Assembly (NCBI GenBank): GCA_043814605.1
Contig: JBDRJV010000018.1
Span: forward strand, 21,545-85,544
DNA length: 64,000 nucleotides
Source of the DNA: Candidatus Omnitrophota bacterium
Lineage (GTDB): Bacteria; Omnitrophota; Gorgyraeia; B26-G9
Direction of reading: 5' to 3'
Positions 12,341 to 59,524 of the stretch are shown one piece after another (positions within the stretch are counted from its first letter, which is position 1; every line of letters begins with the position of its first letter). The notes beneath the pieces are model-generated. The model did not search any database and was not told the DNA's origin. It worked only from the letters and a program-made list of their open reading frames with translations. Position numbers and translations under genes: made by a program.

Positions 12341-13017
12341 TTAAGAAAATTTATTATTTTTTGCACAAAATGCTTTCAAAGAAAAACGAACGCGGTGAAT
12401 ATTCTGCCGGAGTCTGGCAGCATACAGTGCGGGAGCAGGTTATTGCATTATGCGCCCAGAGTACAGGTAAATTGCTGGAAGTAGGCTGCGGGGAAGGGTT
12501 GCTACTGAGTGAAATAGCCAAATTAAATCATAACCTTGAAATTCACGGCATAGATATCTGGGATGAGATATTGGAAAGAGCCCAAGAGAGATTTAAAGCT
12601 GGTAATATTCAAGGGGTAAAATTACAGCAAGCGGATGCAGCAAAATTACCTTATGCCGATAGATATTTTGATGTGGTTATTTGCATAAATGTTTTTTTTA
12701 ATTTGCCCAGCGATACAATATTCCGGGCTAGTTTAAAAGAAATATCCCGTGTGTGTAAAGAAAATGCAATTTTTATTTTTGATATTCGCAATTGCCTGAA
12801 TCCATTGCTTTATTTTAAATATAAATTAGCCCGTTTTTATGATGAAACCGTAGCAAATTTACCTTTAAGGACTTATAATTTTTCTAAAGTGCAAAAAAAT
12901 TTAGCGGAAAATGGATTCTCAATCTTAAAAAAAATAAATATTGGTTTTCCGCGCAATCAATTTTCGCCGATTTTTGTTATTAAAGCTAAGAAAGAGAAAA
13001 ACAAGGTAATCGTATGA
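12337..13017 (+). CDS. Class I SAM-dependent methyltransferase
   Basis: LLEVGCGEGLLLSEI motif I. ATGA overlap with the upstream gene. Confidence 0.7.
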   Translation: MIKKIYYFLHKMLSKKNERGEYSAGVWQHTVREQVIALCAQSTGKLLEVGCGEGLLLSEIAKLNHNLEIHGIDIWDEILERAQERFKAGNIQGVKLQQADAAKLPYADRYFDVVICINVFFNLPSDTIFRASLKEISRVCKENAIFIFDIRNCLNPLLYFKYKLARFYDETVANLPLRTYNFSKVQKNLAENGFSILKKINIGFPRNQFSPIFVIKAKKEKNKVIV

Positions 13018-14205: not shown

Positions 14206-14345
14206 CTAAATCCGAAATCCTAAATCCTAAACAAATCTCAAACTCAACACCCTAAAATAACAACCGATTAACCATTAAATTGAAGATGCTTTAAGTTTTT
14301 AATTTTGGATTTAGAATTTATTTATAGTTTAGTATTTAGGATTTT
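14206..14345. repeat. Long imperfect palindrome built from 'CTAAATCC' units between convergent genes; a direct copy of the unit array lies at 16031-16054
   Basis: Left arm CTAAATCCGAAATCCTAAATCCTAAAC. Right arm (reverse complement) GGATTTAGAAT...TAGTATTTAGGATTTT. Second site TTGATTCTAAATCCTAAATCCAAG on the other side of the - strand ABC transporter pair. Confidence 0.5.
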
Positions 14346-14394
14346 ACGTAACACATGGTGTCTGTAGTCTGTTGTCTATTGTCTGTGGTCTGTA

Positions 14395-15249: not shown

Positions 15250-15982
15250 TAAAACTTGCTCTTAATTCCTCGGCTGATCCTTGTGCTTTAATTTTTCCTT
15301 GATCTAAGATTAAAAATTTATTACAAATTTTTTCTGCTTCTTCAATATTATGAGTTGCTAAAATTATCGTTATTCCTTGGGTGCTTAATTGTCGGATAAA
15401 ATTTTTTAATTCCACAATTGAATCGTAATCTAAACTTTTTAATGGCTCGTCTAAGAACAGGACTGGGGGCTTATTTAACAGAGCGCGAATCAGAGAAAAT
15501 TTTCTTTTCATGCCGGCAGAATAACTATCAAATCGCTTGTGGGCATAATCAACTCTAAAAAGAGAGGTTAATTCAAAAATTCTAGATTTAGTTTGCTGAT
15601 GGTTCAATCCGTAGAGAGCACTGAAAAATTTCAAGTTTTGTTCTCCGGTAAGCCGCCAATAAAAGCTTCTTTCATCTGCACAAACTAGTCCGATGAGAGA
15701 CTTAATTTTTTGATCATCACGGCCAATAATCAGATCATTAATCTTAGCTTGGCCTGAATCCGGCAGGATTAAAGTTGAGAGGATCTTAAGCAATGTGGTT
15801 TTTCCTGCGCCGTTAGGGCCGATTATGCCTAAAATTTCGCCTTTAGATAATGAAAAACTGATATTATCCAAGACCTTATTCGGAAAAGATTTTTGGCCGG
15901 AGAATGATTTTATTAAGTTTTGAGTGTAAACAATTGTTTTATGCATTAACGATAAGGTAACAAATAACTTAAGGAGAGTCAA
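15194..15982 (-). CDS. ABC transporter ATP-binding protein (Wzt/TagH/KpsT-like, no C-terminal carbohydrate-binding domain)
   Basis: Walker A GPNGAGKTT, signature YSAGMKRKFSL, Walker B VLFLDEP, H-loop ATHN. Confidence 0.8.
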   Translation of the reverse strand: MTLLKLFVTLSLMHKTIVYTQNLIKSFSGQKSFPNKVLDNISFSLSKGEILGIIGPNGAGKTTLLKILSTLILPDSGQAKINDLIIGRDDQKIKSLIGLVCADERSFYWRLTGEQNLKFFSALYGLNHQQTKSRIFELTSLFRVDYAHKRFDSYSAGMKRKFSLIRALLNKPPVLFLDEPLKSLDYDSIVELKNFIRQLSTQGITIILATHNIEEAEKICNKFLILDQGKIKAQGSAEELRASFNAISKSLLQVYKKVITRD

Positions 15983-16066
15983 GAAATAACAGGTTAGGAA
16001 ATTAGTTGGGTGATGCTAGATGCTGGAACCTTGATTCTAAATCCTAAATCCAAGAATAGGCCTTAA

Positions 16067-16262
16067 GTGACACTTTTTTTAATTTAAATATTTTTTATCC
16101 TAAAACATTTTGGATTTTTGCATATAGTGTCTCGTATTTTTTCGCACCGGAACACTCGTTGGGCGATCCGTGTTCGCTCTTGAGGCGATATTTACTTTTT
16201 TAACCTCAAACCATGCCCGCTCACACTACTCAACGTCCGGTTTTGAATAAATATTCGCCATA
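16067..16262 (+). repeat. Copy A of a duplicated ~200-nt intergenic element (copy B at 25325-25527), with a promoter-like -35/-10
   Basis: Shared blocks: GACACTTTTTT, AATTTAAAT, CTCGTTGGG...CGATCCGTGTTCGCTCTTGA, and CCTCAAACCATGCCCGCTCA.ACT.CTCAACGTCCGG.TTTGAATAAATA. Upstream (G/T)TGACA is followed 16-17 nt later by a TAtttt/TAAATT -10-like box. Confidence 0.6.
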
Positions 16263-16466
16263 GTTACCTAACAGTTATGCGCTATTTTGTTTTTAGCTTT
16301 TTAACTCGTCACTGATAATTTATAACTATTAATTTTATTGGTATGAATTATCAGCTATCATCTAGTTACTGTATGATGGTCTATTATCTCTTGTCAATTA
16401 ATTAAGAAACGTGTTAAAATAATAACCATTAAATAAAGATTTTTTTAAAAAATAAGGGGGAAATTA

Positions 16467-17923: not shown

Positions 17924-19540
17924 TTGAGGAGTTTTAATTTTGTGCAAACTGAAAAATTGGTCCTCGAAAATAAGATTAATATTTATAACGAACAACTTGA
18001 GAAAAATAAAAAATTAGAAATTAAAATGATCGGCAACTCTATGCTGCCGTTTTTAAAAAACGGTCAAGTTGTTCTGATTAAGCCCGCTCAAATAACCGAT
18101 GTGAAAACCGGAGATATTGTGCTTACCTGTTTTGAAAACCGTTTGCTTTGCCACCGGGTTTTTAAAAAAAATAAATATAGTTTTAGGACAAAGGCAGATG
18201 CTTTTCTAAAACTAGACCCGATAATGACGAAAGCTAATTTAATGGGCAAAGTTGTGGCCTATAAATTTGGTGAGAATTATATTCGGGTGGATAAAAATTT
18301 TTCCCGCTTGCTAGGAATAATAATTTCGCGGTTTTCACTGTTTATGGCTTATTTTTATCCAGTTTTACGTTTTATTAAACGCATGATTGCGGCCAATAGA
18401 AAAAATAATGGAAAATCTCTGGATGATTTAATTTTTTGTTTGCTTACCCCCCACAGTTTAAATGAACCAAGAAAAATATCTCAAGTTTTAGAAAATATAG
18501 AAAGTAATAAAAATTTTGCGTTGGATTTTCTGACTAAAATTCATCAAAATGGAATCAGCGGAGTTATTTTCTATAATCTAAAAAATAAAAAGTTACTTCC
18601 CGTATTGCCGGAAACTATAGTGTCTGAGCTTAAAACAGATTATTTAAATAATTCCGGCCGGGCATTATTTATTGAAAAAAGTTTAACACAACTGATCAAT
18701 CAACTAAATCAGGAAAATATTGATGTGCTTTTAATCCGTGGAATTGATTTTATGGTTAATTTATATCCCGAACCAGGTATGCGGGCAATGAGTGATATTG
18801 ATATTGTGATTAAAAGTGAGGATTTATTGCAAGTAGCAGATGTTTTTAAAAGGCTGGGATATGCTAATCCTCAGGGTTATCTGTATTTATTTTCGCGTGA
18901 TAATCTGCATTATGATATACATCTTGATTGGGCGGGGTTTTGGCGCATTGCTTCTAGAAATGTCAATATTGGCATAAAGAATAAATCAGTCTGGCAAAGA
19001 GCTAAATGTTTTAGCCGGGAATTAACACATATCAGGACATTAGATGATTGTGATTCTATTTTAGCCTGCTGTGCTCATCTGCAGGAACATTCCTATAAAA
19101 GAATAATTTGGTTTTATGATCTGGCGTTATTGCTTAATAAAGAAAATTTTAACTGGAATCAGTTAATGGAACGATCAGAAGAATTTAATCTGAAAAAAAC
19201 ATTATTTTTTGTGCTGAAATATTTACAAAAATTTAATTTTATTCTGGTTCCTGATCCTATTACTGAAGAACTGGATAAACTTAAATTGAATTTTTTTGAA
19301 CAAAAATCATTAAAAATGCTGCAGGCGAACAAAAAGGAATTACTGAGCGGAGAACTTTTACAGTTATTTTCGCTACCTAGTTTTAGCCAAAGGCTTAAAA
19401 GTATTTATGAGACGATTTTTATTCGGGAAAAAGACTTTTCCCAAGCTGGCAAAAAAATTACATTTTTGGATTATATTCTGTGGTTTTTCCGGATACTAGA
19501 GTATAGTATTAAGAAAATAAGCATTATTTTTAGAAAGTAA
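17924..19540 (+). CDS. Two-domain protein: N-terminal S24/S26 (LexA/signal-peptidase-like) peptidase domain plus nucleotidyltransferase-fold domain
   Basis: GNSMLPFLKNGQVVLIKP resembles the SPase I/S24 Ser motif (GDSMxPtl). Residues ~290-320 (RAMSDIDIVIKSEDLLQVADVFKRLGY) give the GS...DxD nucleotidyltransferase signature. The likely true start is the GTG at 17942, preceded by the RBS GAGGAG. Confidence 0.5.
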   Translation: MRSFNFVQTEKLVLENKINIYNEQLEKNKKLEIKMIGNSMLPFLKNGQVVLIKPAQITDVKTGDIVLTCFENRLLCHRVFKKNKYSFRTKADAFLKLDPIMTKANLMGKVVAYKFGENYIRVDKNFSRLLGIIISRFSLFMAYFYPVLRFIKRMIAANRKNNGKSLDDLIFCLLTPHSLNEPRKISQVLENIESNKNFALDFLTKIHQNGISGVIFYNLKNKKLLPVLPETIVSELKTDYLNNSGRALFIEKSLTQLINQLNQENIDVLLIRGIDFMVNLYPEPGMRAMSDIDIVIKSEDLLQVADVFKRLGYANPQGYLYLFSRDNLHYDIHLDWAGFWRIASRNVNIGIKNKSVWQRAKCFSRELTHIRTLDDCDSILACCAHLQEHSYKRIIWFYDLALLLNKENFNWNQLMERSEEFNLKKTLFFVLKYLQKFNFILVPDPITEELDKLKLNFFEQKSLKMLQANKKELLSGELLQLFSLPSFSQRLKSIYETIFIREKDFSQAGKKITFLDYILWFFRILEYSIKKISIIFRK

Positions 19541-19547
19541 AAACCCT

Positions 19548-20396
19548 ATGGGAAAAATATCAATTCAAATTGCCGGAATAAAAATATTAATAATATCAGA
19601 AAACCAAGATCTGATCGAAGGGGTAAAAACCAGCTATTCAATGTTTCAAGTGTGTAATGATCAGCAATATTATTTAAAAATAAATATTACTCTTGATCCG
19701 GTATTAAATCAAGAGAATCAAATGCAAGAAATTTGCCTAGAGAAAGACAACCTTATTTTTAGGCTTAAAGCTGCGGATTTTAGAAGCACAGTTAATTTTA
19801 AAACCAAAACTATTGATGCCCGGATTAGTTCTCAAGCCGGGGCGGTAAGTCTTTTTTTAAGAGTGGTATTCTCGTTAATTCTGTTAGAAAATAATGGATT
19901 CTTAATTCATGCGGCTGGCTTTTGCGATGCGCAAGGAAAAAGCTGGGTTTTTGCCGGTCCATCAGAAAGCGGCAAAACCACTTTGGCCAAATGGGCGGCG
20001 GCAAATAATTATAAGGTATTGAGTGATGAATTAGTGGCTATCCGGAAAATTGACGATCAATATGTTCTGTTTTCCACGCCTTTTAACGGCGAATACAGTG
20101 GACAAATTACTAATTTTCAAGTGGATTTAAAGAATTTATTTTTTCTGGGGCAAAAAATTAAAAGCCAATGTAAAAGGCTCAAAAAATTAGATTGTTTTTT
20201 AAATTTACTAAAAAATGTTTTTTTCTTCAATCGGCAGATTCAAGAAAATCAATTGATGATTAATTTAATGCAGGAATTATCAGAAAGAGTTTGCGCTTAT
20301 CAGATAAATTTGTTTAATCAAGATATCGAAAGGATTATTCATGCCACAAGATCAGATTCTAATACGCAACAAAGAAGCAGCCTGGCAAGAGGTTGA
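19548..20396 (+). CDS. HprK-related kinase (HPr kinase C-terminal-domain-like, P-loop)
   Basis: HAAGFCDAQGKSWVFAGPSESGKTTLA matches the HprK/P C-domain Walker A context. Confidence 0.55.
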   Translation: MGKISIQIAGIKILIISENQDLIEGVKTSYSMFQVCNDQQYYLKINITLDPVLNQENQMQEICLEKDNLIFRLKAADFRSTVNFKTKTIDARISSQAGAVSLFLRVVFSLILLENNGFLIHAAGFCDAQGKSWVFAGPSESGKTTLAKWAAANNYKVLSDELVAIRKIDDQYVLFSTPFNGEYSGQITNFQVDLKNLFFLGQKIKSQCKRLKKLDCFLNLLKNVFFFNRQIQENQLMINLMQELSERVCAYQINLFNQDIERIIHATRSDSNTQQRSSLARG

Positions 20397-20652
20397 GGAT
20401 AATATTGTTGTGATTACCCAGCAGACAAAAAAGATCCATGTTTTGTCAGGCTGCGGCTTAATGCTTTGGCAGAGGTTGGAACAATCTCAGACAAAACAAG
20501 ATTTATTACAGGCAATTTTGGATGAATATGAGGTAGAGCCTGCCCAAGCCCAAGCAGATTTAGATAAATTTTTAGAGGAAGTAATAGCTAAAGATATTAT
20601 TAGACAACAGACAACAGATAAAAAACTAAAACAAAAACAAAAACGAAAATGA
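20341..20652 (+). CDS. PqqD-family protein (RiPP recognition element-like)
   Basis: 103 aa. The W...IHVLSGCGLMLWQRL...DLLQAILDEYEVEPAQAQADLDKFLEEV pattern is typical of PqqD / peptide-chaperone family proteins. Confidence 0.6.
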   Translation: MPQDQILIRNKEAAWQEVEDNIVVITQQTKKIHVLSGCGLMLWQRLEQSQTKQDLLQAILDEYEVEPAQAQADLDKFLEEVIAKDIIRQQTTDKKLKQKQKRK

Positions 20653-20717
20653 CAATAGACATAAAATTACAGGTATTGGGCTAAAAACAAGAAATATTTG
20701 TTTCTAAAATTTTCTGT

Positions 20718-20756
20718 AAGAAAATTTTAGTCTGTGGTCTATGGTCTATGGTCTGG
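20718..20756. repeat. AT-hairpin plus 'NGTCTRT' heptad-repeat element (related copies at 14358-14393 and 51647-51695)
   Basis: TAAAATTTTCT-gta-AGAAAATTTTA hairpin, then AGTCTGT GGTCTAT GGTCTAT GGTCTGG. Copy C has AAAATTTTCTT..AAGAAAATTTT, then AGTCTAT AGCCTAA GGTCTAT TGTCTTT GGTCTTA. Copy A has five heptads: GTCTGT AGTCTGT TGTCTAT TGTCTGT GGTCTGT. Confidence 0.55.
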
Positions 20757-21777
20757 AAAAGTGGATATTTGGACAAAGGTAAAACATACACTTAAGCAAA
20801 AACATATTCCGATTGAAGTAATTTTGGAATTAACTAAGCGCTGTAATTTAAAATGCTGTCATTGTTATAATATTAAAGACAGCTGCCAGTTGAGTTTTAA
20901 ACAAGTAAAAATAATTTTTAAACAATTACGTGATGCCGGCACTTTATTTTTAGTTTTAACCGGAGGCGAGGTATTTTTGCATCCGGATATTATGGAGATT
21001 TTAAATTTAGCGAAAAATATGAATTTTAATTTGAAAATTTTCACAAATGGCACCCTGATTACAGAAGAGATTGCGAGAAATTTAGCAAAGATAATGCCGA
21101 GTGAAATTGGAATCAGTATTCAAGGGGCAAGGGCGAAAACACATGATTTAATTACTGGCGTTAAGGGCTCATATGAGAAATCAATTCAGGCAATAAAGAT
21201 ATTAAAAGCTAAGAGTATTAGTGTAAATCTTAAAACAACGCTCATGCAGCAGAATTTTTCTGAGTTTAAAGAAATCATTAAATTAGCCGCGGATTTAGGA
21301 ATAGTTTATATTATGGATCCGGTTATTGCGCCGCGGGATGATGGATCCTGTGATGTTTTAGCTTATCGATTGACGGATGCACAATTAGAAGAATTTTATC
21401 AGTTTGAAGTTGAACTAAAAGGGTATATCTATGAGCCTGAAGAAAAAGAATATTTTTGTCAGGCGGGATTTACTTTTGGCAGTATATCTGCAAACGGGGA
21501 TGTGTACCCGTGTATACAATTACCGCATAAACTGGGAAATATTTTTGAGCAGGATTTTAGCGGGATTTGGCAGAATGCAGAATTTTTAAAAAAGATGCGC
21601 CGCAGTAATGCTTATGATAATCCGGAATGTCAAAGTTGTAAGATTGCCGATGTTTGCACGCGGTGCCCGGGGCTGGCATTTTTAGAAGACGGCGATGCTT
21701 TTGGGAAATCCGCTGTGGCTTGCATGCACGCGCAAGTCTACAAAAAACTGGGTGATAGGGTGAAGGGTGAAGGGTGA
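20734..21777 (+). CDS. Radical SAM enzyme with C-terminal SPASM domain (peptide-modifying or anSME-like maturase)
   Basis: CNLKCCHCY (CxxxCxxC) near the N-terminus. GGE motif (LTGGEVFLHPD). C-terminal Cys-rich SPASM region (CQAGFTFGSISANGDVYPC...CQSCKIADVCTRCPG). The start is uncertain; the ATG lies inside a repeat element, and GTG 20761 is an alternative. Confidence 0.75.
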   Translation: MVYGLWSGKVDIWTKVKHTLKQKHIPIEVILELTKRCNLKCCHCYNIKDSCQLSFKQVKIIFKQLRDAGTLFLVLTGGEVFLHPDIMEILNLAKNMNFNLKIFTNGTLITEEIARNLAKIMPSEIGISIQGARAKTHDLITGVKGSYEKSIQAIKILKAKSISVNLKTTLMQQNFSEFKEIIKLAADLGIVYIMDPVIAPRDDGSCDVLAYRLTDAQLEEFYQFEVELKGYIYEPEEKEYFCQAGFTFGSISANGDVYPCIQLPHKLGNIFEQDFSGIWQNAEFLKKMRRSNAYDNPECQSCKIADVCTRCPGLAFLEDGDAFGKSAVACMHAQVYKKLGDRVKGEG

Positions 21778-21836
21778 ATTTATTTTACTCTCTACTTTCT
21801 GCTCGCTACTGATTCAAAATAAGGTATAATATAATT

Positions 21837-23789
21837 ATGCAAAATAAACTAATTCATAAACTAACCATCCAAATCATAATTATTGTTGTGATTATTGCCG
21901 GGGTTTTTTCTTTTTTAATTAATATGCAAACCAAGGAATTAGAAAAAAGAATTTCAGAAAAATCTGAACTTTTTTCAAAAATTTTAGGCGCACATTTAGA
22001 CAATATTATTGGCAATAATCTTATTGCTTATAATTCATTACAAGAGAAAGTCGAAAGGTTAATAGAGGGCAATAAAGATATTGAAGAGCTGATTATCATT
22101 GGCCCGGAAAAAATAGTTATTGCATCAAGTTCTGGCAGGAAAATCGGGGCATCTCCGGATATGCAATATATGGGGATTATTAACGAAGTAGTTCAGACAA
22201 AAAAATCCAAGGCAATTGTTAAATCTGATTTAGGCAAAGAATTAGTAATCCATTTTTTGCCAATTTTTTCTTCTGCGGGTAATGCGGATAATCTTATCGG
22301 AATAATGCAAATGAAAGCAAATTTTCCTTCCCAGCAGGGTGAATTGGTAACAGCACTGCGAAAAAACAGGAATTATTTTTTTAAAGAAGAAGCACTCCGC
22401 TTTGCTCAGGATCTATCCCGGGATTTAGAATTAGTTATGGCTGAGGTTAACAGAAATTCCGGATATTTAGACCGCTTAATTCAAAATATACTGGAAGATG
22501 CGGAAATTAAGGATATTAAATTATATTTGAAAGATCTGCAATTTCTAATCTCCGGAACCGGGCGTGATTCATACATTTCGCAGGATGATATCCAAAGAAA
22601 TTATTTTCGTGCGATGCAAGAGAAAATAACGTTCAAAGCTCAATATAAAAAACAAGGCCATTTAACTCAGTTTATCAGCCCGTTATTTCTCACAGTAGAC
22701 GGAAAACGTAAGGTAAGCGGTGCGGTAGGAATATTAATCTCTTTAGAACGTGTATATGATGTAATTAACACAAGGAGAAATTCTATTGTTTTGATGAGTT
22801 TTTTGATAATTTGCGCCTTTGTTTTAATTATTGGATTATTTTTTAGAAATTCAATTATTGCACCTTTAAAAAATCTAAGCAATATGAGCGCAAAAATCGG
22901 TAAAGGGGATTTCTCACAAAAAATAAGTATTAAGGGGACTGATGAAATCAGTGATTTAGGAAAATCATTTAATCAGATGTCAGACGAATTATTGCGTTCT
23001 AAAAAAGAAATTGAAGAGTGGAACAAAAAACTGCAGGAAAAAGTAAAAATAATCTCGAATGAATTAGAAGCCAAGCAGGCCCAGCTTATTGAATCAGAAA
23101 AAATGGCTTCTTTAGGTGTTCTTTCCAGCGGAATTGCCCATGAAATTAATAACCCCCTGGGAATTATCATTGGTTCAGTGCAGATGATTCTTAAGGAATT
23201 AAAGGAAAAACAAACCCTGGCTAATCCCCAACAGACAGAGGAATTGCTTAAAACTGTGGAAAATTATACGCGGCGCTGTTCGCATATTGTGAATAGTTTA
23301 TTGCAATTTGCTAATAAAAAACAAATGCAATTAATTGAGTCTGATGTGAATAAATCTGTAGAAAATGCTTTATTGTTCACGGAAAATCATATCAAGAAAA
23401 ATAATATTAATTTGATTCAATCCTTAGAAAAAGACCTTCCCCAGGTTTTAGCGGATCCCATAAATTTAGAGCAGGTATTTATCAATATTATTCTTAATGC
23501 GCAGATGAGTATGCCGGAGGGAGGGCAGCTGAAAGTTTCCACTGCGCTTGCGGGCAATAGGGTGATGGTAAGTTTTGAAGATACGGGTATGGGGATTGCC
23601 GCAGGGAATATGCATAAAATTTTCGAGCCGTTTTTTTCAACCCGTGAACCGGGTAAAGGTGCGGGGCTTGGATTATCGATAAGTTATGGTATTATTAAAG
23701 CACACAATGGGGATATAAAGGTAGAAAGTGCAGTGGGTAAAGGGACAAAGGTTACGGTGGAAATACCGATTAAAGAAAGAAAAGAGTAG
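21837..23789 (+). CDS. Sensor histidine kinase (membrane-bound, HAMP + HisKA + HATPase_c)
   Basis: Two TM segments flank a ~290-aa periplasmic domain. H-box SGIAHEINNPL. N/G boxes (IILNAQMSM...DTGMGI...GKGAGLGLSISYGI). Confidence 0.85.
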   Translation: MQNKLIHKLTIQIIIIVVIIAGVFSFLINMQTKELEKRISEKSELFSKILGAHLDNIIGNNLIAYNSLQEKVERLIEGNKDIEELIIIGPEKIVIASSSGRKIGASPDMQYMGIINEVVQTKKSKAIVKSDLGKELVIHFLPIFSSAGNADNLIGIMQMKANFPSQQGELVTALRKNRNYFFKEEALRFAQDLSRDLELVMAEVNRNSGYLDRLIQNILEDAEIKDIKLYLKDLQFLISGTGRDSYISQDDIQRNYFRAMQEKITFKAQYKKQGHLTQFISPLFLTVDGKRKVSGAVGILISLERVYDVINTRRNSIVLMSFLIICAFVLIIGLFFRNSIIAPLKNLSNMSAKIGKGDFSQKISIKGTDEISDLGKSFNQMSDELLRSKKEIEEWNKKLQEKVKIISNELEAKQAQLIESEKMASLGVLSSGIAHEINNPLGIIIGSVQMILKELKEKQTLANPQQTEELLKTVENYTRRCSHIVNSLLQFANKKQMQLIESDVNKSVENALLFTENHIKKNNINLIQSLEKDLPQVLADPINLEQVFINIILNAQMSMPEGGQLKVSTALAGNRVMVSFEDTGMGIAAGNMHKIFEPFFSTREPGKGAGLGLSISYGIIKAHNGDIKVESAVGKGTKVTVEIPIKERKE

Positions 23790-23859
23790 AGAGTAACGAG
23801 TAGAGAGAGAAAAAACAAAAACAATTATTCTCTCTACTATCTACTTGCTACTCGCTACT
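23784..23859. repeat. Palindromic 'GAGTAGAGAG / CTCTCTACTC' element between the kinase and regulator genes; one member of a dispersed family
   Basis: Arms AGAGTAGAGAGTAACGAGTAGAGAGAG and CTCTCTACTATCTACTTGCTACTCGCTACT surround an A-rich loop. Related copies lie at 21788-21810, 25275-25304, 25604-25643, 44036-44056, 44112-44121 and 51552-51567. Confidence 0.6.
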
Positions 23860-23860
23860 T

Positions 23861-25273
23861 ATGAAATGGAAAATTTCTATGAAGCAAGATCGAATACTAG
23901 TTGTTGACGATGAGCCGGGCATGCGGCAATATTTAAAAAAATTACTTACGGATAACGGGTATCAAGTTGAGATTGCGGAAAATGGGATTCAAGCGCTGGA
24001 AATGATTAATGAAAAAGTTCTGGATCTGGCACTGATTGATTTTAAAATGCCGGGGATGGATGGAATACAGCTTTTAGCTAAAATTAAGGCAGAGCATGAA
24101 CATGTGATTGTAATCATGATGACGGCTTACGGAACAATGGAAAGGGCAATTCAAGCGATGAAGTTAGGGGCTTATGATTATTTAAGTAAACCGTTTGAAG
24201 TTGATGCGATTTTATTGATAATTGAAAAAGCGCTTAAAACCAAAAGGCTGGAAGATGAGAATATTATTTTACGCAAAGAGCTTAAAAAAACCTATACTTT
24301 TGCGGATATTATTTCGGAAAATTCCCAGATGCAGCATATTTTTGAGATTATCCAGAAAGTAGCCCCGGCTAAAAGCACTGTCTTAATTCAAGGAGAAACC
24401 GGTACAGGTAAAGAGCTGATTGCCCGGGCATTGCATGCGTTAAGCCCGCGGAATCAAAAACCGTTCATTCCTGTGGATTGCGGGGCATTAAGTGAGAGTT
24501 TACTGGAGAGTGAATTATTTGGCCACATAAAAGGTGCGTTTACCGGAGCAACACAGGATAAAAAGGGGCTGTTTGAAACTGCAGACGGCGGCACAGTATT
24601 TTTGGATGAGATTGGGCATATTTCATTAGCTATTCAAGCTAAGTTATTACGTGTTTTGCAGGATGGCCAGATCAAACGCGTGGGTGAAGCAGCTTCACGC
24701 AGTGTGGATATCCGTCTTGTAGCAGCGAGCAATGAAGATATTGAAATGGGGATTAAAGAAGGCAAATTCCGCGAAGATTTATTTTATCGTTTAAATGTTG
24801 TACCGATTTTTGTGCCGGCTTTGCGTGAGCGTAATGAAGATATCCCGCTTTTAGTTGAGCATTTCATTCATAAGTACAATAATATTGAAAAGAGAAATAT
24901 TCAAGGCATTAGCCATGATGCTTTGAAAATGCTGATGTCTTTTTCCTGGCCGGGGAATGTAAGAGAGTTAGAAAACTTAGTACATAGAGCTGTGGTTATG
25001 GCAGATAAAGATAATATTGAAGTAATGGATTTACCTTTAAACGTAAAAACTTTGTCTGTTGCGGAAAGAAGGATAGATGCAAATCGTACGCTTGATTTTC
25101 GCAAAGCAAAAAATAATGCTTTAGCTGCATTTGAAAAAAGATTTTTAATTGAAAGTTTAATGCGCCATAAAGGCAATATCAGCCGCGCGGCAAAAGAAAT
25201 GAACTTAGACCGCAGAAACCTGCACCGCAAATTAAAGCAGTATAATATCACACCTAGCAATTATTTATCTTAA
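23861..25273 (+). CDS. Sigma-54-dependent response regulator (NtrC family: REC + AAA+ sigma-54 activator + Fis-type HTH)
   Basis: REC domain with D at [14 protein letters not shown]. Walker [15 protein letters not shown] motif ([12 protein letters not shown]). C-terminal [27 protein letters not shown]. Confidence 0.9.
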
Positions 25274-25324
25274 AAGTAGCGAGTAGCAAGAAGAGAGTAG
25301 AGAGAATGTGTTATCATGCAATAG

Positions 25325-25527
25325 TTGACACTTTTTTCATTTAATTTAAATTTTGTTTTTTACAGAAACTGTTTCGTATTTATTCATCCCGGAATTCTCG
25401 TTGGGTCCCAGCGAGACCCAACTTCGTTCGGCGATCCGTGTTCGCTCTTGAAGCTTTATTTATATTTTTTAGCCTCAAACCATGCCCGCTCATACTGCTC
25501 AACGTCCGGGTTTGAATAAATACTCAC
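25325..25527 (+). repeat. Copy B of the duplicated ~200-nt element, flanked by imperfect inverted 'AGTAGCGAGTAG...AGAGAGTAG' repeats (25275-25304 and 25604-25643)
   Basis: Direct sequence comparison with 16067-16262. Contains a 26-nt hairpin insertion (GTTGGGTCccagcgaGACCCAAC). The indel is not a multiple of 3, so it is non-coding. Confidence 0.6.
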
Positions 25528-25827
25528 CGATAATATCAACTATTAGCAATAAAATTTAAAACTGTTAATCTTTTTCAAGATAACATATATTGTTTTCTCG
25601 CTACTTGCTTGTGCTTTTAAGGATGCTACTCTCTACTCGCTACTAATTGATTTTTAACCAATTTGTGGTATACTTATTTATGTGTAAATATTGTCTCAAT
25701 GAGGCGTATTTTACACAATATTTTGGTTAATTTTAAAATTTTCTGAAACAGTCTTTTTATTTTACTCTGTAACATGTTTATTTTTAAATGATTAAGTTTT
25801 TGATAAATAAAATATTTTATTTTGTGT

Positions 25828-25843
25828 TGGCACGTTGATTGCT
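25828..25843 (+). promoter_or_regulatory. Sigma-54 (RpoN) -24/-12 promoter for the giant gene
   Basis: The sequence TGGCACGTTGATTGCT matches the consensus TGGCACG-N4-TTGCW exactly, with 10 nt between GG and GC. It lies 19 nt upstream of the ATG at 25862, downstream of an NtrC-type activator gene. Confidence 0.7.
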
Positions 25844-25861: not shown

Positions 25862-28800
25862 ATGAGAAAAACAAATAAAATTCTAAAAATCATTGGTTTT
25901 ATTTTTCTGGTTATGGCAGTTATTCCAACCAGCGCGCAGGCGCGTTTAATTGTGCAAAAAGGCACGTCCACTATTGCTGCCGGGCAGACAACATATGTTC
26001 AGTCGATTAATGCTGTCAGCAGCCTTTCTAATGCTTTTGTGTTAATGTGGTCTACAGGAGACAGCGGGGCAAGTAATTCACAATATCATCAGGCCACTGG
26101 GGTGCTTACTTCTACCAGCCAGATTACATTTACGCGTCAGGGAACAACTGATGATTGCCGGATCGGCTGGTATGTAATTGAGGCAGAATACGGTGAGTTT
26201 GAAGTTGTAAAGAGAAATACCATAACTATCGGCACAACCGCAACTACCCAGGATGATGCGATTGGCGCGACTATTGACCAGTCACGTTCGTTTATTGTTT
26301 CTAATTCACGGATTGGAGGAAATGGCGGAACTGCTAATGCCTACAAGGGATATGCTACGACGCATTTTTTAAATGATACTACAATCCAGGCAGCCCGCGG
26401 GGTTTCGGGTACTTACACCACAATTGTAAGTTATGCTGTAGTGCAATGGTCTGCTGCTTCCGGGGTTACAGTGCAGTCAAAAGAACTAAGCGCTTCCATA
26501 GGTACTACTGAAGTAACTGATACAATTAACACAGCGGTAACTCCGGTGCAAACCTGGCTGTACGCAACGGCGCGGCATAATTCAAACGGGCTTTCACAGA
26601 CTGCGGTAAATACTTATTTAAAAGACGGAACAACTGTAGGTTTTAGCCGTTATACCGGTACTTATACCTCAGCCATACGCTGGTGGGCAATCCAATTTCC
26701 TGAAGGGGTTCCGGTACAGCGCCAGTCGCTTAGCGCTGCCAGCGGCGACCTTACAGAACCGGCAACATTAGCTTCCAATGTGACTATCGGCTATTCCTGG
26801 TCGGATAATTATAATGATTCCAATGGTACAGGTACAGCTTATCCCCGGCAGTCCTGGTATTCGCAGATTACTGCGGTTAATCAGGTAATAGCTACGCGTT
26901 ATTACAGCGGGCAGGCAGCAAACTTATCCATGCAGGCGATTGATACCAGTGCCTGGATCCCTCCATTAGTGACAATAACAATTACGCCGGATCCTTGTAA
27001 AGCAGTGGGTATTGGCGGGCTTGAAACCAAGCTTGTATTTAATCTGACTATGAATACATCTGTTGAACCGATTATAACCTATGACCCGCAAGGCGCAACC
27101 GGGCCTCAGGCTTGTACCGCAGGCACATGGTCAACGACAACATATGCTAATGATACATACACTGTTTACAATGATTACGAAATTAATGCTTCTACGGGTG
27201 ACGGTACTGCCGTAATCAGTGTTAGCGGAGCAAAAAGTGATTTAGGTATAACTATGTACCCGGATACTGATGATTCCTTTATTATAGATGCTACTGTCCC
27301 GAATAATCCGTCATATCCCTGCGGCAGTTGGGATTCCAGCAGTAAGACAGCCGCGATTCCGAATGATACCTGGCAGGAGATAGATAGCACGCCTTATTTT
27401 GAATGGACCGGAGCCAGTGACGGAGCTGGAACCGGAGTTAGCGGTTATTCTGTTTATTGGGGAAATTCCAGTATCGGCGAACCGGCAACTACTCAAGAAC
27501 AGTCTGCGGAAAATTATGATGTAGCTACTCCGGTAGATGACGGAATATATTATTTAAGGGTAAGGACATTTGATAATGCGGGAAATTACAGCGAGCCGGT
27601 TACAATATTTATTTTTCAGTACGATGCTTCTGCCCCAATTAATCCTGATGTTCCGGCAAATTCCTGGGAGTCAAATTTAAAACTAACTCCCATAACTAAT
27701 GATACCTGGCAAAAGGATGATAATACACCGTATTTTGAATGGACTGGCGCTAATGATTCCGGCGGTTCTGGGGTAAGCGGTTATTCTGTTTATTGGGGAA
27801 CAGACACTAACGGCGAGCCCGGGCAGACACAGCAGCAGTCAAATATGAATTATCAGGTAAGTACCCCGGCAGATACAAATACTTATTATTTGAGAGTAAG
27901 AACTTTTGATAATTTTAATCATTATAGTAATCCTGTAACTTTATTTATATTTAAATATGATGATACACAACCCACAAATCCCGTACAGCCTTGCAGCGGT
28001 TGGGATTCTCCTTCTAAAGGAAACATGCTTTCCAATAATAAGGCGCAGGGGTTTGGCCAGACGCCGTATTTTGAATGGACTGGTGCCTCCGATGCTAGCG
28101 GCAGCGGCGTGAGCGGTTATTCTATTTACTGGGGTATGGATTCAGAAGGCGAACCAGGCTTAACCCAAGAGCAGGCTAATGCGGATTATGAAATCAGCAC
28201 CCCAACAGGTGAAGATACGTATTATTTAATTGTCAGGACATTTGATGCTTTGGGTAATTACAGCGAGCCGGTTACTTTGTTTACTTTTATTTACGATGAA
28301 ACTAAACCCACCGTAACAATAACTGTTAGCCCGGATCCGGCCGGACACAGCGCAGCCGGGGAGTTGGAATTTAAACTTGTTTTTTCTGAATCCATGGATA
28401 TTGCGGTAACCCCGAGTGTAAGCTATGACCCGCAAGGCGCAACCGGCAACCAGACTGTAGATACAAATGGTGCCTGGTCAACCACAACTTATACTAATGA
28501 TACTTACACAGTTTATAACAGCAATGTGATTAACAGTACTACTGGTGACGGAGCCGCAGCAATAAGTGTGAGCACAGCTCAGGATGTTGCGCTAAATACA
28601 ATGTTAGCGGATACCAATGATAGTTTTACGATTGATACGCTAGTGCATCATTTTGTGATTGCTCATGACGGGATGGCAGTAATAAATATTCCGGAAACTT
28701 TAACCATTACGGCTAAAAACAGTACGAATTGTACAGTGTTAGATTATACCGGCCAGGTAACATTAAGCACTTTAAACGAAACCGGAGAAATAACCTGGGC

Positions 28801-44035: not shown

Positions 44036-44153
44036 AAGTAGCGAGTAGAGAGTAGCACCTTTACGGGTACGAGCAAGTAGCCCTCCTACGCTAAAGCTTC
44101 GGAGGGTAAAAAAGTAGAGAGCAAAAACAAAAAGTTTTTAAATAAAAAAAATA

Positions 44154-51486: not shown

Positions 51487-51690
51487 TTTTACTCCTTTTT
51501 ATAAGAAGCAAGTAGCCCCGCTGTAGCGGGATTTCGCTAAAAAATACATTAATGTTCTCAACAAGTAGAGAGAAAAGATATTTATTTTTTGTATAACTTA
51601 CTAATTTACTCGCACAATAATGTCTTAACAAAATTTTCTTTATTTATAAGAAAATTTTAGTCTATAGCCTAAGGTCTATTGTCTTTGGTC

Positions 51691-55557: not shown

Positions 55558-55714
55558 CAGCCTAAAATTATGAGAGGGAGATTGATTAATTTTAAGCTGC
55601 AAGTTTCAGGTAAAAATCTTTAAGCTTGAAGCTTGGTGCTTGTGGCTTACTTAACCTCATTCTGAATTTTAATGTTTGAAATCTAATTTTCCGATATCTG
55701 TTGAAAATTAAAAA

Positions 55715-59211: not shown

Positions 59212-59524
59212 CCCAGTCTAGTTATTTCCCCCTTTTTATGTTAATTGACTGCTTTTAGTAACTTCTTTATAATAAATATATATTCATGATTTTTTAAAGC
59301 GATGGAGATTGATTAATTTTAAGTTGCAAGTTTCAGGTGAAAAGCTTTAAGCTTGAAGCTTGGTGCTTGTGGCTTACTTGAAACTAGGGGCGGAGAAATG
59401 TAATGGTTAGCGGATAGAGAAAAATAAGTTTTAAGAAAAAGATTTTTTCTCGCGATTCTTTGCTAGTTACTTGTTAAGAATATTAATGTAATTTTATTAA
59501 TTACTAGATAAAAAATTAATAGTT

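What the first reader, a model, noticed from the sequence alone, without database searches (positions are those of the whole stretch)
16067..16262. Duplicated ~200-nt non-coding element with its own promoter-like boxes (second copy 25325-25527): candidate sRNA or shared cis-regulatory leader
Two intergenic regions 9 kb apart share a co-linear ~200-nt sequence with indels that break any reading frame. The 64-aa ORF at 25325-25519 is therefore spurious. Both copies begin with (G/T)TGACA-N16/17-TAxxxT, so each could be transcribed rightwards. Copy A sits in the divergent promoter region between the ABC exporter and the chaperone gene. Copy B sits between the sigma-54 regulator and the giant gene. 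The conserved core (CGATCCGTGTTCGCTCTTGA ... CCTCAAACCATGCCCGCTCA) is much more GC-rich than the surroundings and forms small hairpins.
Basis: seen in the sequence. Interest (0 to 1): 0.6.

Follow-up and report, generated by a model that had tools for sequence, protein, structure and literature searches.

The report
Duplicated orphan non-coding element, Omnitrophota
Two copies of a roughly 200-base non-coding sequence sit 9 kb apart in an uncultured Omnitrophota genome; they are real and probably make a small folded RNA, but no relative was found anywhere else, so the function is unproven and the finding is of modest interest.

Summary
Copy A (16067-16262) and copy B (25325-25530) are co-linear, same-strand and the only two copies in the window. 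The core is 90% identical over 99 nt and has 45-55% GC against 20-25% GC flanks. No reading frame survives in both copies, and nothing matches in Rfam or in a search of 5.8 billion proteins.

The host is a Candidatus Omnitrophota MAG. Relatives with the same ten-gene order lack the element at both sites. At site B two relative genomes (L017; L018/L019) carry a Y1-transposase gene instead. Both downstream genes have their own conserved promoters downstream of the element, so it is neither their leader nor the sigma-54 enhancer.

Each copy has a promoter-like block, a variable spacer, and a core closed by a 16+5 bp stem around two or three hairpins. The stem differs by one compensatory change and two G-U changes. 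The interior is more conserved than the stem arms.

Best reading (about 0.4): a young, lineage-specific structured RNA gene, with B ancestral and A a decaying duplicate. Main rival (about 0.3): a non-autonomous mobile repeat. Two sequences cannot settle this. Interest is modest.

The parts
16067..16096 (+). Copy A: conserved promoter-like block (GTGACA-16-TATTTT; TGACACTTTT..TTTAATTTAAAT shared with B)
   Evidence: Promoter scan. The block is significantly similar to B, z = 6.4. TGACACTTTTTT occurs only at the two copies.
16097..16133 (+). Copy A: variable AT-rich spacer (the 5' leader if transcribed), poorly alignable with B
   Evidence: Alignments.
16134..16161 (+). Copy A: 5' arm of the closing stem (P1 16134-16151; P1b CGTTG 16157-16161)
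   Evidence: RNAalifold consensus and pair counts. Single-sequence minimum-energy fold.
16162..16178 (+). Copy A: hairpin H2 (GGCGA-TCCGTGT-TCGCT), 17/17 identical to B
16180..16209 (+). Copy A: hairpin P3 (TTGAGG ... CCTCAA) with an 18-nt U-rich loop
   Evidence: Minimum-energy fold. Pair counts. The loop is variable, 14/18 identical.
16210..16230 (+). Copy A: conserved C-rich unpaired stretch ACCATGCCCGCTCACACTACT (19/21 identical to B)
16231..16262 (+). Copy A: 3' arm of the closing stem (P1b CAACG 16231-16235; P1 16236-16254) plus the short shared tail TTCGCCATA
   Evidence: Similarity to B ends here.
25325..25358 (+). Copy B: conserved promoter-like block (TTGACA-16-TAAATT)
   Evidence: Promoter scan. 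It lies where relatives have a TTGAAA-17-TAAAAT box after the regulator gene.
25376..25403 (+). Copy B: 5' arm of the closing stem (P1 25376-25393; P1b 25399-25403)
   Evidence: P1 in B has 17 paired bases in the single-sequence fold.
25404..25429 (+). Copy B only: 26-column insertion. Its perfect 8-bp hairpin GTTGGGTC-CCAGCGA-GACCCAAC spans 25400-25422. Imperfect 8-nt direct repeats TCGTTGGG (25398-25405) and TCGTTCGG (25424-25431) lie at its two ends.
   Evidence: Alignment, fold, and direct reading of the sequence.
25430..25446 (+). Copy B: hairpin H2
25448..25478 (+). Copy B: hairpin P3 (TTGA-A-GCT ... AGC-C-TCAA)
25479..25499 (+). Copy B: conserved C-rich unpaired stretch
25500..25530 (+). 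Copy B: 3' arm of the closing stem (P1b 25500-25504; P1 25505-25523) plus the shared tail
25268..25315 (+). Context: left arm of a long duplex built from 7-nt-period arrays (AGTAGCG/AGTAGAG...). It pairs with 25578-25623, so copy B lies in its loop.
   Evidence: Duplex energy -41.5 kcal/mol, z = -5.8. Tandem Repeats Finder period 7. blastn inverted hits.
25578..25623 (+). Context: right arm of that duplex
16391..16420 (+). Context, not part of the element: the SurA-like gene's own promoter, TTGTCA-18-(TG)TAAAAT. A closely similar box is present in the relatives L005, L008 and L010.
25681..25717 (+). Context, not part of the element: enhancer-like palindrome TGTGTAAA-N21-TTTACACA, conserved in relatives upstream of the giant gene
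   Evidence: Alignment with L017 and L018. Sequence.
25828..25843 (+). Context, not part of the element: perfect sigma-54 promoter TGGCACgttgaTTGCT, 19 nt before the giant gene's ATG
   Evidence: It is the only zero-mismatch site in the window. Conserved in L017 and L018.

Best explanation
This is a young, lineage-specific non-coding RNA gene present as two paralogous copies in one Candidatus Omnitrophota genome.

**Anatomy of each copy.**
- A sigma-70-like promoter block comes first.
- A short variable 5' leader follows.
- A 120-150 nt GC-rich core comes last. Its two ends pair into a long closing stem (16 + 5 bp).
- The stem encloses two hairpins (H2 and P3; B has a third, H1) and a 21-nt C-rich unpaired stretch that is almost invariant.

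**History.** Copy B is the older, intact version. It lies in the loop of a pre-existing intergenic hairpin just after the sigma-54 regulator gene. Copy A is a duplicate placed upstream of the promoter of the same operon. It has lost hairpin H1 by slippage between 8-nt direct repeats and is decaying.

**Proposed mode of action.** Rightward transcription makes a rod-like RNA. No terminator follows, so the RNA is either cut out at the base of the closing stem or remains as an optional long 5' extension of the downstream mRNA. The conserved unpaired stretch and the H2 loop are the likely contact surfaces for a partner RNA or protein.

**Shown:** the duplication, the non-coding nature, the absence from relatives, a compatible shared fold, and uneven conservation.

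**Inferred:** transcription, direction, processing and any regulatory role.
For: **Real and non-coding.**
- The repeat is real, with exactly two copies in the window.
- No frame is shared, and concatenated translated segments from all six frames of the core hit nothing in 5.8 billion proteins.

**Composition.** The core is a GC island (45-55%) in 20-25% GC intergenic DNA, which is the classic signature of structured RNA in AT-rich genomes (the interpretation rests on general knowledge).

**Shared fold.**
- The consensus fold gives 98% of cells paired at register 0, against 33-50% when partners are slid by 1-3 columns.
- The closing stem differs between copies by one compensatory A-U to C-G change and two changes that keep G-U pairs. 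Those G-U pairs would be A-C mismatches on the minus strand, which favours + strand RNA.
- Copy B folds far better than shuffles (z = -4.6).

**Uneven conservation.**
- The interior (H2, the P3 3' arm, the unpaired stretch and P1b) is 52/54 identical. The rest is 64/80 (Fisher p = 0.008, grouping chosen post hoc).
- The stem arms (31/37) are less conserved than the interior (58/61). A transposon's terminal repeats would be expected to show the opposite.

**Promoter block.**
- It is conserved between copies (z = 6.4).
- At site B it lies where relatives have a TTGAAA-17-TAAAAT box driving another gene.

**Direction of descent.** The insertion in B has imperfect 8-nt direct repeats at its ends (TCGTTGGG / TCGTTCGG), and A folds no better than shuffles (z about 0). 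Both fit A being the derived, decaying copy.
Against: - There is no transcription evidence.
- There is no intrinsic terminator at or after the 3' boundary in either copy.
- The one terminator-like hairpin inside A (16174-16188) is not kept in B.
- A 4-nt indel lies inside the supposed promoter spacer, so the two -10 boxes are not homologous positions. Promoter-like sites are also common by chance here (6 and 12 found against about 3 expected).
- Covariation has no statistical weight with two sequences (237/500 shuffles equal it).
- Copy A is not more stable than shuffled sequence.
- No relative carries the element and no database holds a homologue, so purifying selection over time cannot be shown.
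- No target stands out for the conserved stretch among the window's translation-initiation regions (best -19.4 kcal/mol against a shuffled-seed mean of -19.75).
- If the duplication is recent, the high core identity needs no selection at all.
Confidence: 0.4

Rival explanations
1. It is a non-autonomous mobile or selfish DNA repeat of the MITE, ERIC, Correia or PATE/REPIN type. The long inverted repeat is what a transposase encoded elsewhere in the genome recognises, and any transcription is incidental.
For: **Presence/absence polymorphism.**
- All eight syntenic loci fetched from five relative genomes lack it at site A. In the closest ones, the intergenic region there is only about 180-215 nt (model searches).
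- Site B is an insertion hot spot. L017 and L018/L019 carry a Y1-transposase gene (PF01797) exactly there, flanked by direct repeats. The L020, L021 and L022 contigs break about 220-260 nt after the regulator gene.

**Element features.**
- It is small and non-coding, with a 17-bp imperfect inverted repeat near its ends.
- Copy B sits in the loop of a long hairpin, a target type known for some IS families (the target preference is from my own knowledge).
- The same genome has at least one other duplicated intergenic module, at 55574 / 59301.
Against: - No target-site duplication is visible at either plausible pair of boundaries (sequence).
- Homology extends 55-70 nt to the left of the left arm but only about 6 nt to the right of the right arm. 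The inverted repeat is therefore not terminal, and the unit that was copied is not the unit bounded by the repeat.
- The arms are less conserved than the interior, and they change in a way that preserves pairing.
- No transposase, recombinase or reverse transcriptase is present in the 64-kb window (Pfam; tblastn with three Y1 proteins).
- The non-coding flanks of the relatives' Y1 genes show no similarity to the element.
- Only two copies lie in 64 kb, and none was found in any collection.
Confidence: 0.3
2. It is a neutral relic: a single recent segmental duplication of about 200 nt of intergenic DNA, for example by template switching or illegitimate recombination. It has no function as RNA or DNA, and the two copies are simply drifting apart.
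For: - The element is confined to one genome.
- A looks degraded: it has lost a hairpin, has a mismatch and two G-U pairs in the stem, and folds with z about 0.
- Indels concentrate in AT-rich, slippage-prone tracts.
- This genome has expanded many intergenic spacers with repeat arrays, so intergenic DNA is evidently fluid here.
Against: - This does not explain what the GC-rich, strongly folding sequence (B z = -4.6) was before it was duplicated.
- Conservation along the unit is uneven (p = 0.008, post hoc).
- The stem changes preserve pairing.
Confidence: 0.12
3. It is a shared cis-regulatory DNA or leader element: a common operator, enhancer or 5' UTR that co-regulates the SurA-like operon and the giant gene.
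For: - Both copies lie upstream of, and in the same orientation as, functionally linked genes (a chaperone / two-component operon and a giant surface protein).
- No terminator separates the element from the downstream gene, so an upstream promoter would give a long leader.
Against: - Both genes have their own promoters downstream of the element, conserved in relatives that lack it.
- The sigma-54 enhancer is identified separately as the conserved palindrome at 25681-25717.
- There is only one sigma-54 promoter in the window, and none near A.
- The element ends 205 nt (A) and 332 nt (B) before the start codons.
- No riboswitch or leader family matches.
Confidence: 0.08
4. It encodes a small protein, for example a type I toxin-like peptide (GTG-start MFALEALFIFFSLKPCPLILLNVRV in B) or the 16-28 aa ORF MPAHT(T/A)QRP(V/G)LNKYSP. 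The long 5'-3' pairing would then control its translation.
For: - A long 5'-3' closing stem around a tiny ORF is the architecture of hok- and aapA-type toxin mRNAs (my own knowledge).
- In the MPAHT frame, 4 of the 6 substitutions are synonymous (reading).
Against: - Neither start codon has a Shine-Dalgarno sequence, although the neighbouring genes have strong ones (AAGGGGG, AAGAGG).
- The hydrophobic ORF is frameshifted between the copies by the 1-nt indel, yet the downstream nucleotides stay 91% identical.
- Four of 6 third-position changes in some frame is expected by chance about 30% of the time (my calculation).
- There are no protein homologues.
Confidence: 0.04
5. It is an orphan retron-like msr-msd RNA: a promoter followed by an RNA whose terminal inverted repeats (a1/a2) enclose hairpins.
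For: The generic layout matches: a promoter, a terminal inverted repeat, internal hairpins, and a length of 130-170 nt.
Against: - No reverse transcriptase lies next to either copy or anywhere in the 64 kb.
- No retron-related Rfam hit was found.
Confidence: 0.03

Closest known systems
Paralogous bacterial small RNA genes (e.g. Qrr1-5 beside luxO, OmrA/B, PrrF1/2, GlmY/Z)
   Same: - It has its own promoter-like block and a 120-170 nt GC-rich structured core.
- Two diverged copies in one genome show conserved unpaired segments and stems whose sequence is free to vary.
- One copy lies directly beside a sigma-54 response-regulator gene, as qrr1 does beside luxO (that comparison is from my own knowledge).
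   Different: - It has no intrinsic terminator and no U-tail.
- Its promoter is sigma-70-like rather than sigma-54-like.
- It is not conserved in any relative.
- No target is evident.
- It has no Rfam family.
Bacterial MITE-like intergenic repeats (Correia, ERIC, RUP, REPIN)
   Same: - It is short, non-coding and intergenic.
- It has a long imperfect inverted repeat that would fold as an RNA hairpin.
- It is present in one lineage and absent from syntenic sites in relatives.
- It may carry an outward-reading promoter, as Correia elements do.
   Different: - The inverted repeat is not terminal.
- There is no target-site duplication.
- The interior is more conserved than the arms.
- Only two copies were seen.
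- No cognate transposase was found.
IS200/IS605-RAYT systems and their palindrome-associated derivatives (PATE, REP)
   Same: - Two relative genomes (L017; L018/L019) carry a Y1 (HUH) transposase gene at exactly the position of copy B.
- Such systems leave no target-site duplication and use hairpins rather than terminal inverted repeats.
   Different: - No Y1 gene is present in the window.
- The flanks of the relatives' Y1 genes share no sequence with the element.
- No matching subterminal hairpins occur at the two ends.
- No conserved tetranucleotide precedes the left end (TAAG in A, ATAG or TAGT in B).
6S RNA (ssrS), co-transcribed with and processed out of the ygfA transcript
   Same: - The RNA would be rod-like with paired ends.
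- It has no terminator of its own.
- A downstream gene lies on the same strand.
   Different: - No Rfam 6S hit appears even at E <= 10.
- It is much shorter (122-149 nt).
- Its interior is a multi-hairpin junction rather than a central bubble plus a long apical stem.
- It is absent from relatives, whereas 6S RNA is a housekeeping RNA.

Membership tests
Any Rfam 15 family | Covariance-model score at or above the gathering threshold | tested here: not met
   There are 0 hits in the whole window at gathering threshold. In E-value mode on both loci only noise appears: rydB 13.8 bits against a threshold of 50, and ES173 14.5 bits against 90.
MITE | Terminal inverted repeats at the very ends of the repeated unit | tested here: not met
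   A 16-17 bp inverted repeat exists. However, homology between the copies runs 55-70 nt beyond the left arm (z = 6.4), so the repeat is subterminal.
MITE | Target-site duplication flanking each copy | tested here: not met
   No direct repeat is seen at either the homology boundaries or the arm boundaries (reading). Only a trivial TC dinucleotide occurs, and it lies inside the shared region.
MITE | Many dispersed copies in the genome | not testable with these tools
   Two copies lie in 64 kb. The rest of the MAG is not in the contig index. The species is absent from the genome collection that was scanned.
MITE | Parent transposon with matching ends | tested here: inconclusive
   No transposase is present in the window. 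The rest of the genome was not seen.
REPIN / RAYT system | A RAYT (Y1) gene flanked by the repeat, and the repeat being a doublet of short REP palindromes | tested here: not met
   tblastn with three Omnitrophota Y1 proteins finds nothing in the window. The flanks of the relatives' Y1 genes are unrelated to the element. The 'spacer' between the arms is more conserved than the arms.
Hfq-type or terminator-ended trans-acting sRNA | Intrinsic terminator (GC hairpin plus U-run) at the 3' end | tested here: not met
   The scan finds none at either 3' boundary. The internal candidate in A is not conserved in B.
Hfq-type or terminator-ended trans-acting sRNA | Own promoter | tested here: inconclusive
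   Promoter-like boxes score 9/12 and 10/12, and the -35 block is conserved. However, there is a 4-nt indel in the spacer and a high chance background.
Structured RNA in general | Statistically supported covariation | tested here: inconclusive
   There is 1 compensatory pair and 2 one-sided changes among 32 pairs. With 2 sequences, 237/500 shuffles do as well.
Riboswitch / cis-acting leader | Lies in the 5' UTR between the gene's promoter and its start codon, with an expression platform | tested here: not met
   The conserved promoters of both downstream genes lie downstream of the element. There is no terminator or SD-sequestering hairpin adjacent to the genes.
Sigma-54 enhancer (bEBP upstream activating sequence) | Palindromic activator site about 100-150 bp upstream of a -24/-12 promoter, conserved with it | tested here: not met
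   That role is filled by TGTGTAAA-N21-TTTACACA at 25681-25717, which is conserved in L017 and L018. No sigma-54 promoter lies near copy A.
Retron msr-msd | Adjacent reverse-transcriptase gene | tested here: not met
   No RT domain is found in any window ORF.
Type I toxin-antitoxin | Small hydrophobic ORF with a ribosome-binding site, conserved in all copies | tested here: not met
   The candidate ORF is frameshifted between the copies and has no SD.
Integron attC site | 5'-RYYYAAC ... GTTRRRY-3' at the base of the hairpin, next to a cassette ORF | tested here: not met
   Matching heptamers are present (GTTGGGC/T and RCTCAAC), but in the reverse order on both strands, and they lie 17 bp inside the stem (reading).
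tRNA / tmRNA-derived attachment site | tRNA-like sequence | tested here: not met
   ARAGORN finds no tRNA or tmRNA in the window.

The most novel reading that the evidence does not exclude
The element is the founding member of a new structured-RNA class restricted to one Omnitrophota lineage. It arose inside the loop of an intergenic hairpin beside the sigma-54 two-component system. Acting as a processed small RNA, it couples that operon (chaperone, peptide-modification cassette, sensor and regulator) to expression or secretion of the neighbouring 6057-aa surface protein. Alternatively, it is a new kind of hairpin-loop-targeting mobile RNA/DNA element that moves without terminal repeats or target duplications.
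Probability: 0.12. Interest if true: 0.55.

Novelty: new member of a known kind. Interest (0 to 1): 0.3.

Why it matters
If it is a real RNA gene, it would be one of the first candidate regulatory RNAs described for Omnitrophota. This phylum has almost no cultured members and is noted for giant surface proteins. The element would also sit at the control region of such a giant gene, next to its sigma-54 regulator.

It would be a rare chance to see a small RNA gene just after birth and first duplication: one intact copy and one decaying copy.

If it is only a mobile repeat or a neutral duplication, it is ordinary. As it stands, it is an orphan with two copies in a single metagenome-assembled genome, so its value is as a lead, not a result.

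Tried and rejected
**Searches for more copies. All came back empty or with chance hits only.**
- An exact 20-mer scan of 185,579 species genomes gave four hits in GC-rich Alphaproteobacteria, Oscillospiraceae and similar. None extended beyond 20-24 nt.
- A gapped two-anchor scan of JGI metagenomes gave five hits in 61-69% GC contigs, about the number expected by chance from my own rough estimate. None extended.
- Three scans of viral contigs found nothing.
- blastn against phage and plasmid collections found nothing.
- Translated segments from all six frames of the core, concatenated and searched against 5.8 billion proteins to catch spurious ORFs called over other copies, found nothing at E <= 10.
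- A covariance model searched over 15 loci from Omnitrophota relatives found nothing.
- The source contig could not be fetched by exact-protein look-up.

**Interpretations rejected.**
- Sigma-54 enhancer: the real one is conserved elsewhere.
- Attenuator (mutually exclusive GGCGA/TCGCT/GGCGA hairpins plus a U-run in A): the terminator arm is not kept in B.
- attL/attR of a 9-kb island: relatives have the same 9-kb operon in the same place without the repeats.
- Remnant of the Y1-transposase gene or of its ends: no similarity.
- attC site, 6S RNA and tRNA-derived site: see the membership rows.
- Local sRNA target: duplex energies are no better than for shuffled seeds.
- Extension of homology downstream of the element: not above control.
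- My first idea that the 7-nt arrays bracket genes as 5'/3' mRNA pairs: local pairing across intergenic spacers fits better.
Full report
**1.

None is expected by chance, even with three mismatches allowed.
- An all-against-all blastn of the window's intergenic regions aligns 16156-16253 with 25424-25522 at 90% identity over 99 nt (E 3e-27).
- A covariance model built from the two cores recovers only these two sites (204 and 166 bits; the next hit scores 9.5 bits).
- The AT-rich 5' part is also homologous. TGACAC-TTTT[4-nt indel]TTTAATTTAAAT scores z = 6.4 against shuffles.
- Similarity beyond 16262/25530 is no better than an unrelated AT-rich control.
- B carries a 26-column insertion (25404-25429), and the copies differ by a 1-nt indel in a T-run.
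- No reading frame is shared. The 64-aa ORF at 25325..25519 is confined to B.
- Translated segments from all six frames of the core, concatenated into one query, hit nothing among 5.8 billion predicted proteins at E <= 10.
- The core has 45-55% GC in flanks of 20-25%. The window as a whole has 36% GC.

**2. Host and neighbourhood**

The 464-aa protein downstream of copy A is 100% identical to MFH1459656.1 from a Candidatus Omnitrophota MAG, on a 104-kb contig. Its closest other homologue is only 55% identical. The regulator's closest other homologue is 71% identical. No close relative of this genome is therefore in the databases.

Pfam gives this gene order:
- glycosyltransferases, methyltransferases and DegT
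- ABC-2 exporter (minus strand)
- **copy A**
- SurA-like chaperone
- S24-peptidase fused to NTP_transf_5
- a 282-aa ScmC-position protein
- PqqD
- radical-SAM/SPASM enzyme
- histidine kinase
- sigma-54 response regulator
- **copy B**
- a 6057-aa Ig-repeat protein
- BamB-like protein
- type II secretion / type IV pilus genes

No transposase, recombinase or reverse transcriptase is present anywhere in the window. tblastn with three Omnitrophota Y1 transposases also finds nothing.

**3. What relatives show**

Four relative loci have exactly the same order of about ten genes from DegT to the regulator. They are L017 (GCA_043805415.1), L018/L019 (GCA_018817165.1), L020 and L022. In L017-L019 the order continues into the giant gene. 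The L020 and L022 contigs end shortly after the regulator gene.

- **Site A.** The ABC-SurA spacer in these relatives is only about 180-215 nt and lacks the element. More distant relatives (L005-L011) also lack it.
- **The SurA-like gene's promoter.** TTGTCA-18-(TG)TAAAAT lies at window 16391-16420. L005, L008 and L010 carry a closely similar box, and it lies downstream of copy A.
- **Site B.** L017 and L018/L019 carry a 283-296 aa Y1-transposase-family gene (PF01797) between the regulator and the giant gene. It is flanked by direct repeats of a promoter-like box, GCAATGCTTGAAATGT.
- **Contig breaks.** The L020, L021 and L022 contigs break about 220-260 nt after the regulator gene.
- **Control elements of the giant gene.** When the inserts are removed and the spacers aligned, two features are conserved downstream of copy B. 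One is a palindrome, TGTGTAAA-N21-TTTACACA, at 25681-25717. The other is a perfect sigma-54 promoter, TGGCACgttgaTTGCT, at 25828-25843. It is the only zero-mismatch site in the window.

The element is therefore a lineage-specific insertion at both sites. It is not the enhancer and not the native leader of either gene. Site B is an insertion hot spot.

**4. Anatomy**

Each copy has three parts.

(i) A promoter-like block. In A this is GTGACA-16-TATTTT at 16067-16094. In B it is TTGACA-16-TAAATT at 25325-25352.

(ii) A variable AT-rich spacer.

(iii) A core whose ends pair.

- RNAalifold gives a closing stem of 16 bp (P1) plus 5 bp (P1b, CGUUG/CAACG).
- Inside the stem are hairpin H2 (GGCGA-UCCGUGU-UCGCU) and a further pairing of the TTGA(G/A)GC segment. 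RNAalifold pairs that segment with GCUCA in the C-rich stretch.
- The single-sequence folds instead pair it with CCUCAA to form hairpin P3, which has a U-rich loop. I used the P3 version for the pair counts. Both alternatives are conserved, so they cannot be told apart.
- A 21-nt C-rich unpaired stretch, ACCAUGCCCGCUCA(C/U)ACU(A/G)CU, is also inside the stem.
- B has an extra perfect 8-bp hairpin, H1.

On the alignment, 98% of cells pair in register, against 33-50% when partners are slid by 1-3 columns.

P1 differs between the copies in three pairs:
- one compensatory change (A-U to C-G);
- two one-sided changes that keep G-U pairs. These would be A-C mismatches on the minus strand, which favours a + strand RNA (or single-stranded DNA).

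One further position (alignment columns 13/148, left unpaired in the consensus) pairs in B but is a U-U mismatch in A.

With two sequences this has no statistical weight. 237 of 500 shuffles do as well.

B folds much better than shuffles (z = -4.6). A does not (z about 0).

Conservation is uneven:
- H2, the P3 3' arm, the unpaired stretch and P1b together are 52/54 identical. The rest is 64/80 (Fisher p = 0.008, grouping chosen post hoc).
- The stem arms (31/37) are less conserved than the interior (58/61, p = 0.08).

B's insertion has imperfect 8-nt direct repeats at its ends (TCGTTGGG / TCGTTCGG). A probably lost H1 by slippage, so A is the derived copy.

**5. Setting of copy B**

This genome has many 7-nt-period low-complexity arrays at gene boundaries. 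They pair locally across intergenic spacers.
- 23783-23812 pairs with 23827-23861 between the kinase and regulator genes (z = -5.3).
- 25268-25315 pairs with 25578-25623 (-41.5 kcal/mol, z = -5.8). This encloses 25316-25577, that is, copy B plus 47 nt.

Copy B therefore lies in the loop of a long hairpin. Copy A's flanks are not complementary (z = -0.4).

In the relatives, the corresponding genes abut or overlap. These hairpin spacers are therefore specific to this genome.

**6. Interpretation**

I favour, at about 0.4, a young structured RNA gene. On this reading B is ancestral and A is a decaying duplicate placed upstream of the same operon's promoter. The supporting points are:
- the GC island in AT-rich DNA;
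- the conserved promoter block;
- the variable leader;
- pairing-preserving changes in a stem whose sequence is less conserved than the enclosed loops;
- strand-specific G-U pairs.

No terminator follows either copy. The RNA would therefore have to be cut out at the base of P1, or it would persist as an optional long 5' extension of the downstream mRNA. Transcription, direction, processing and function are all inferred.

The main rival, at about 0.3, is a non-autonomous mobile repeat.
- For it: the presence/absence pattern, the hot-spot site shared with a Y1 transposase gene in relatives, and the inverted repeat.
- Against it: no target-site duplication, an inverted repeat that is not terminal, arms less conserved than the interior, and no transposase in view.

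Lesser rivals:
- a neutral recent duplication (0.12);
- a shared cis-regulatory DNA or leader element (0.08);
- a small protein or type I toxin (0.04);
- an orphan retron-like RNA (0.03).

**7. Comparison with known systems**

No Rfam family matches. The element works most like a paralogous sRNA gene or a Correia/ERIC-type transcribed repeat, but it fails defining tests for each:
- terminator-ended sRNA: no terminator;
- MITE: no terminal repeats and no target duplication;
- REPIN/RAYT: no Y1 gene, and the interior is more conserved than the arms;
- retron: no reverse transcriptase;
- riboswitch or leader: wrong side of the promoters;
- sigma-54 enhancer: that role is taken by another conserved site;
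- attC: heptamers in the wrong order;
- tRNA-derived site: none found.

**8. Verdict**

This is a real, non-coding, lineage-restricted duplicated element of unknown family. It is most likely a small structured RNA or a repeat derived from a mobile element.

It is a new member of a known kind, not a new kind. The decisive data are the rest of the genome, more copies, and transcript maps. None of these can be reached with the present tools. Interest: 0.3.

Noticed in passing
window 14206-14231, 14327-14394, 16018-16052, 20602-20618, 20730-20754, 21750-21810, 23783-23860, 25268-25315, 25578-25644, 44033-44081, 51640-51684, 55620-55652, 59342-59379: Low-complexity arrays with a 7-nt period sit at gene boundaries. 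Examples are AGTAGCG/AGTAGAG, CTACTCN, GTCTGTN, CTAAATC and AAGCTTG. They pair locally as inverted partners across intergenic spacers, forming 25-40 bp duplexes (z -5.3 and -5.8 for two of them). In the closest syntenic relatives the same genes abut or overlap, so these hairpin spacers are specific to this genome. I do not know of a described equivalent. They may be intercistronic RNA processing or stabilising hairpins.
   Followed up: partly
window 55574-55652 and 59301-59379: This is a second duplicated intergenic module: 79 nt, 95% identical, 3.7 kb apart. Each copy lies just after a + strand gene (DUF5671 protein; ARMT1-like protein) and contains an (AAGCTTG)n array. The element studied here is therefore not the only copied intergenic segment in this genome.
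   Followed up: no
window 25681-25717 and 25828-25843; L017 about 12397-12432 and 12541-12558: The giant 6057-aa gene has a perfect sigma-54 promoter 19 nt before its ATG. An enhancer-like palindrome, TGTGTAAA-N21-TTTACACA, lies about 110 bp upstream of that promoter. Both are conserved in relatives. The giant gene is therefore very probably controlled by the adjacent histidine kinase / sigma-54 regulator pair.
   Followed up: partly
L017 11462-12352; L018/L019 11497-12348; L008 2396-3247: Omnitrophota relatives carry a 283-296 aa Y1 (HUH) transposase-family gene. In L017-L019 it lies exactly between the sigma-54 regulator and the giant gene, flanked by direct repeats of GCAATGCTTGAAATGT. In L018 about 110 nt of the regulator's 3' flank seems to be duplicated. 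In L008 the gene is flanked by REP-like palindromes, GCAACAAAAGTGTT..AACACTTTTGTTGC. This looks like a domesticated RAYT-type gene.
   Followed up: partly
window 17924-21777; L017 4307-8052; L005 3708-8259: A conserved peptide-modification-like cassette travels with the ABC-2 exporter, the SurA-like gene and the two-component system across Omnitrophota. It comprises S24 peptidase, NTP_transf_5, ScmC, PqqD and a radical-SAM enzyme. That enzyme carries a SPASM domain in the window's lineage but not in the cassette copy of L005, L008 and L010. In the window's lineage the cassette lies after the SurA-like gene. In L005, L008 and L010 it lies on the other side of the exporter and includes a 56-57 aa ORF that may be the precursor. 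No precursor is evident in the window.
   Followed up: no
window 25862-44035: The 6057-aa ORF contains more than 20 tandem 357-nt (119-aa) repeats, 60-73% identical at the DNA level, between about 28.6 and 40 kb. It is followed by BamB-like, secretin, PilM/N/O and T2SS E/F genes.
   Followed up: no
window 15940-15985: The ABC ATPase ORF's longest start (TTG at 15982) coincides with a -35-like TTGACT that is conserved in relatives (TTGACG/TTGACT). The real start is probably the ATG at 15946, which would give a very short or absent 5' leader.
   Followed up: partly
L020 11500-11646; L022 11500-11608; L021 end: Three independent contigs from relatives end 220-260 nt after the regulator gene. The break lies just past a hairpin-forming sequence, GTCATCGCGAGGAGTGAAGCGACGAAGCGATCAC. 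This suggests a multi-copy repeat at this site that breaks assemblies.
   Followed up: no
window 16311-16354: An inverted repeat, CTGATAATT-N26-AATTATCAG, lies between copy A and the SurA-like promoter. It may be an operator or a hairpin.
   Followed up: no
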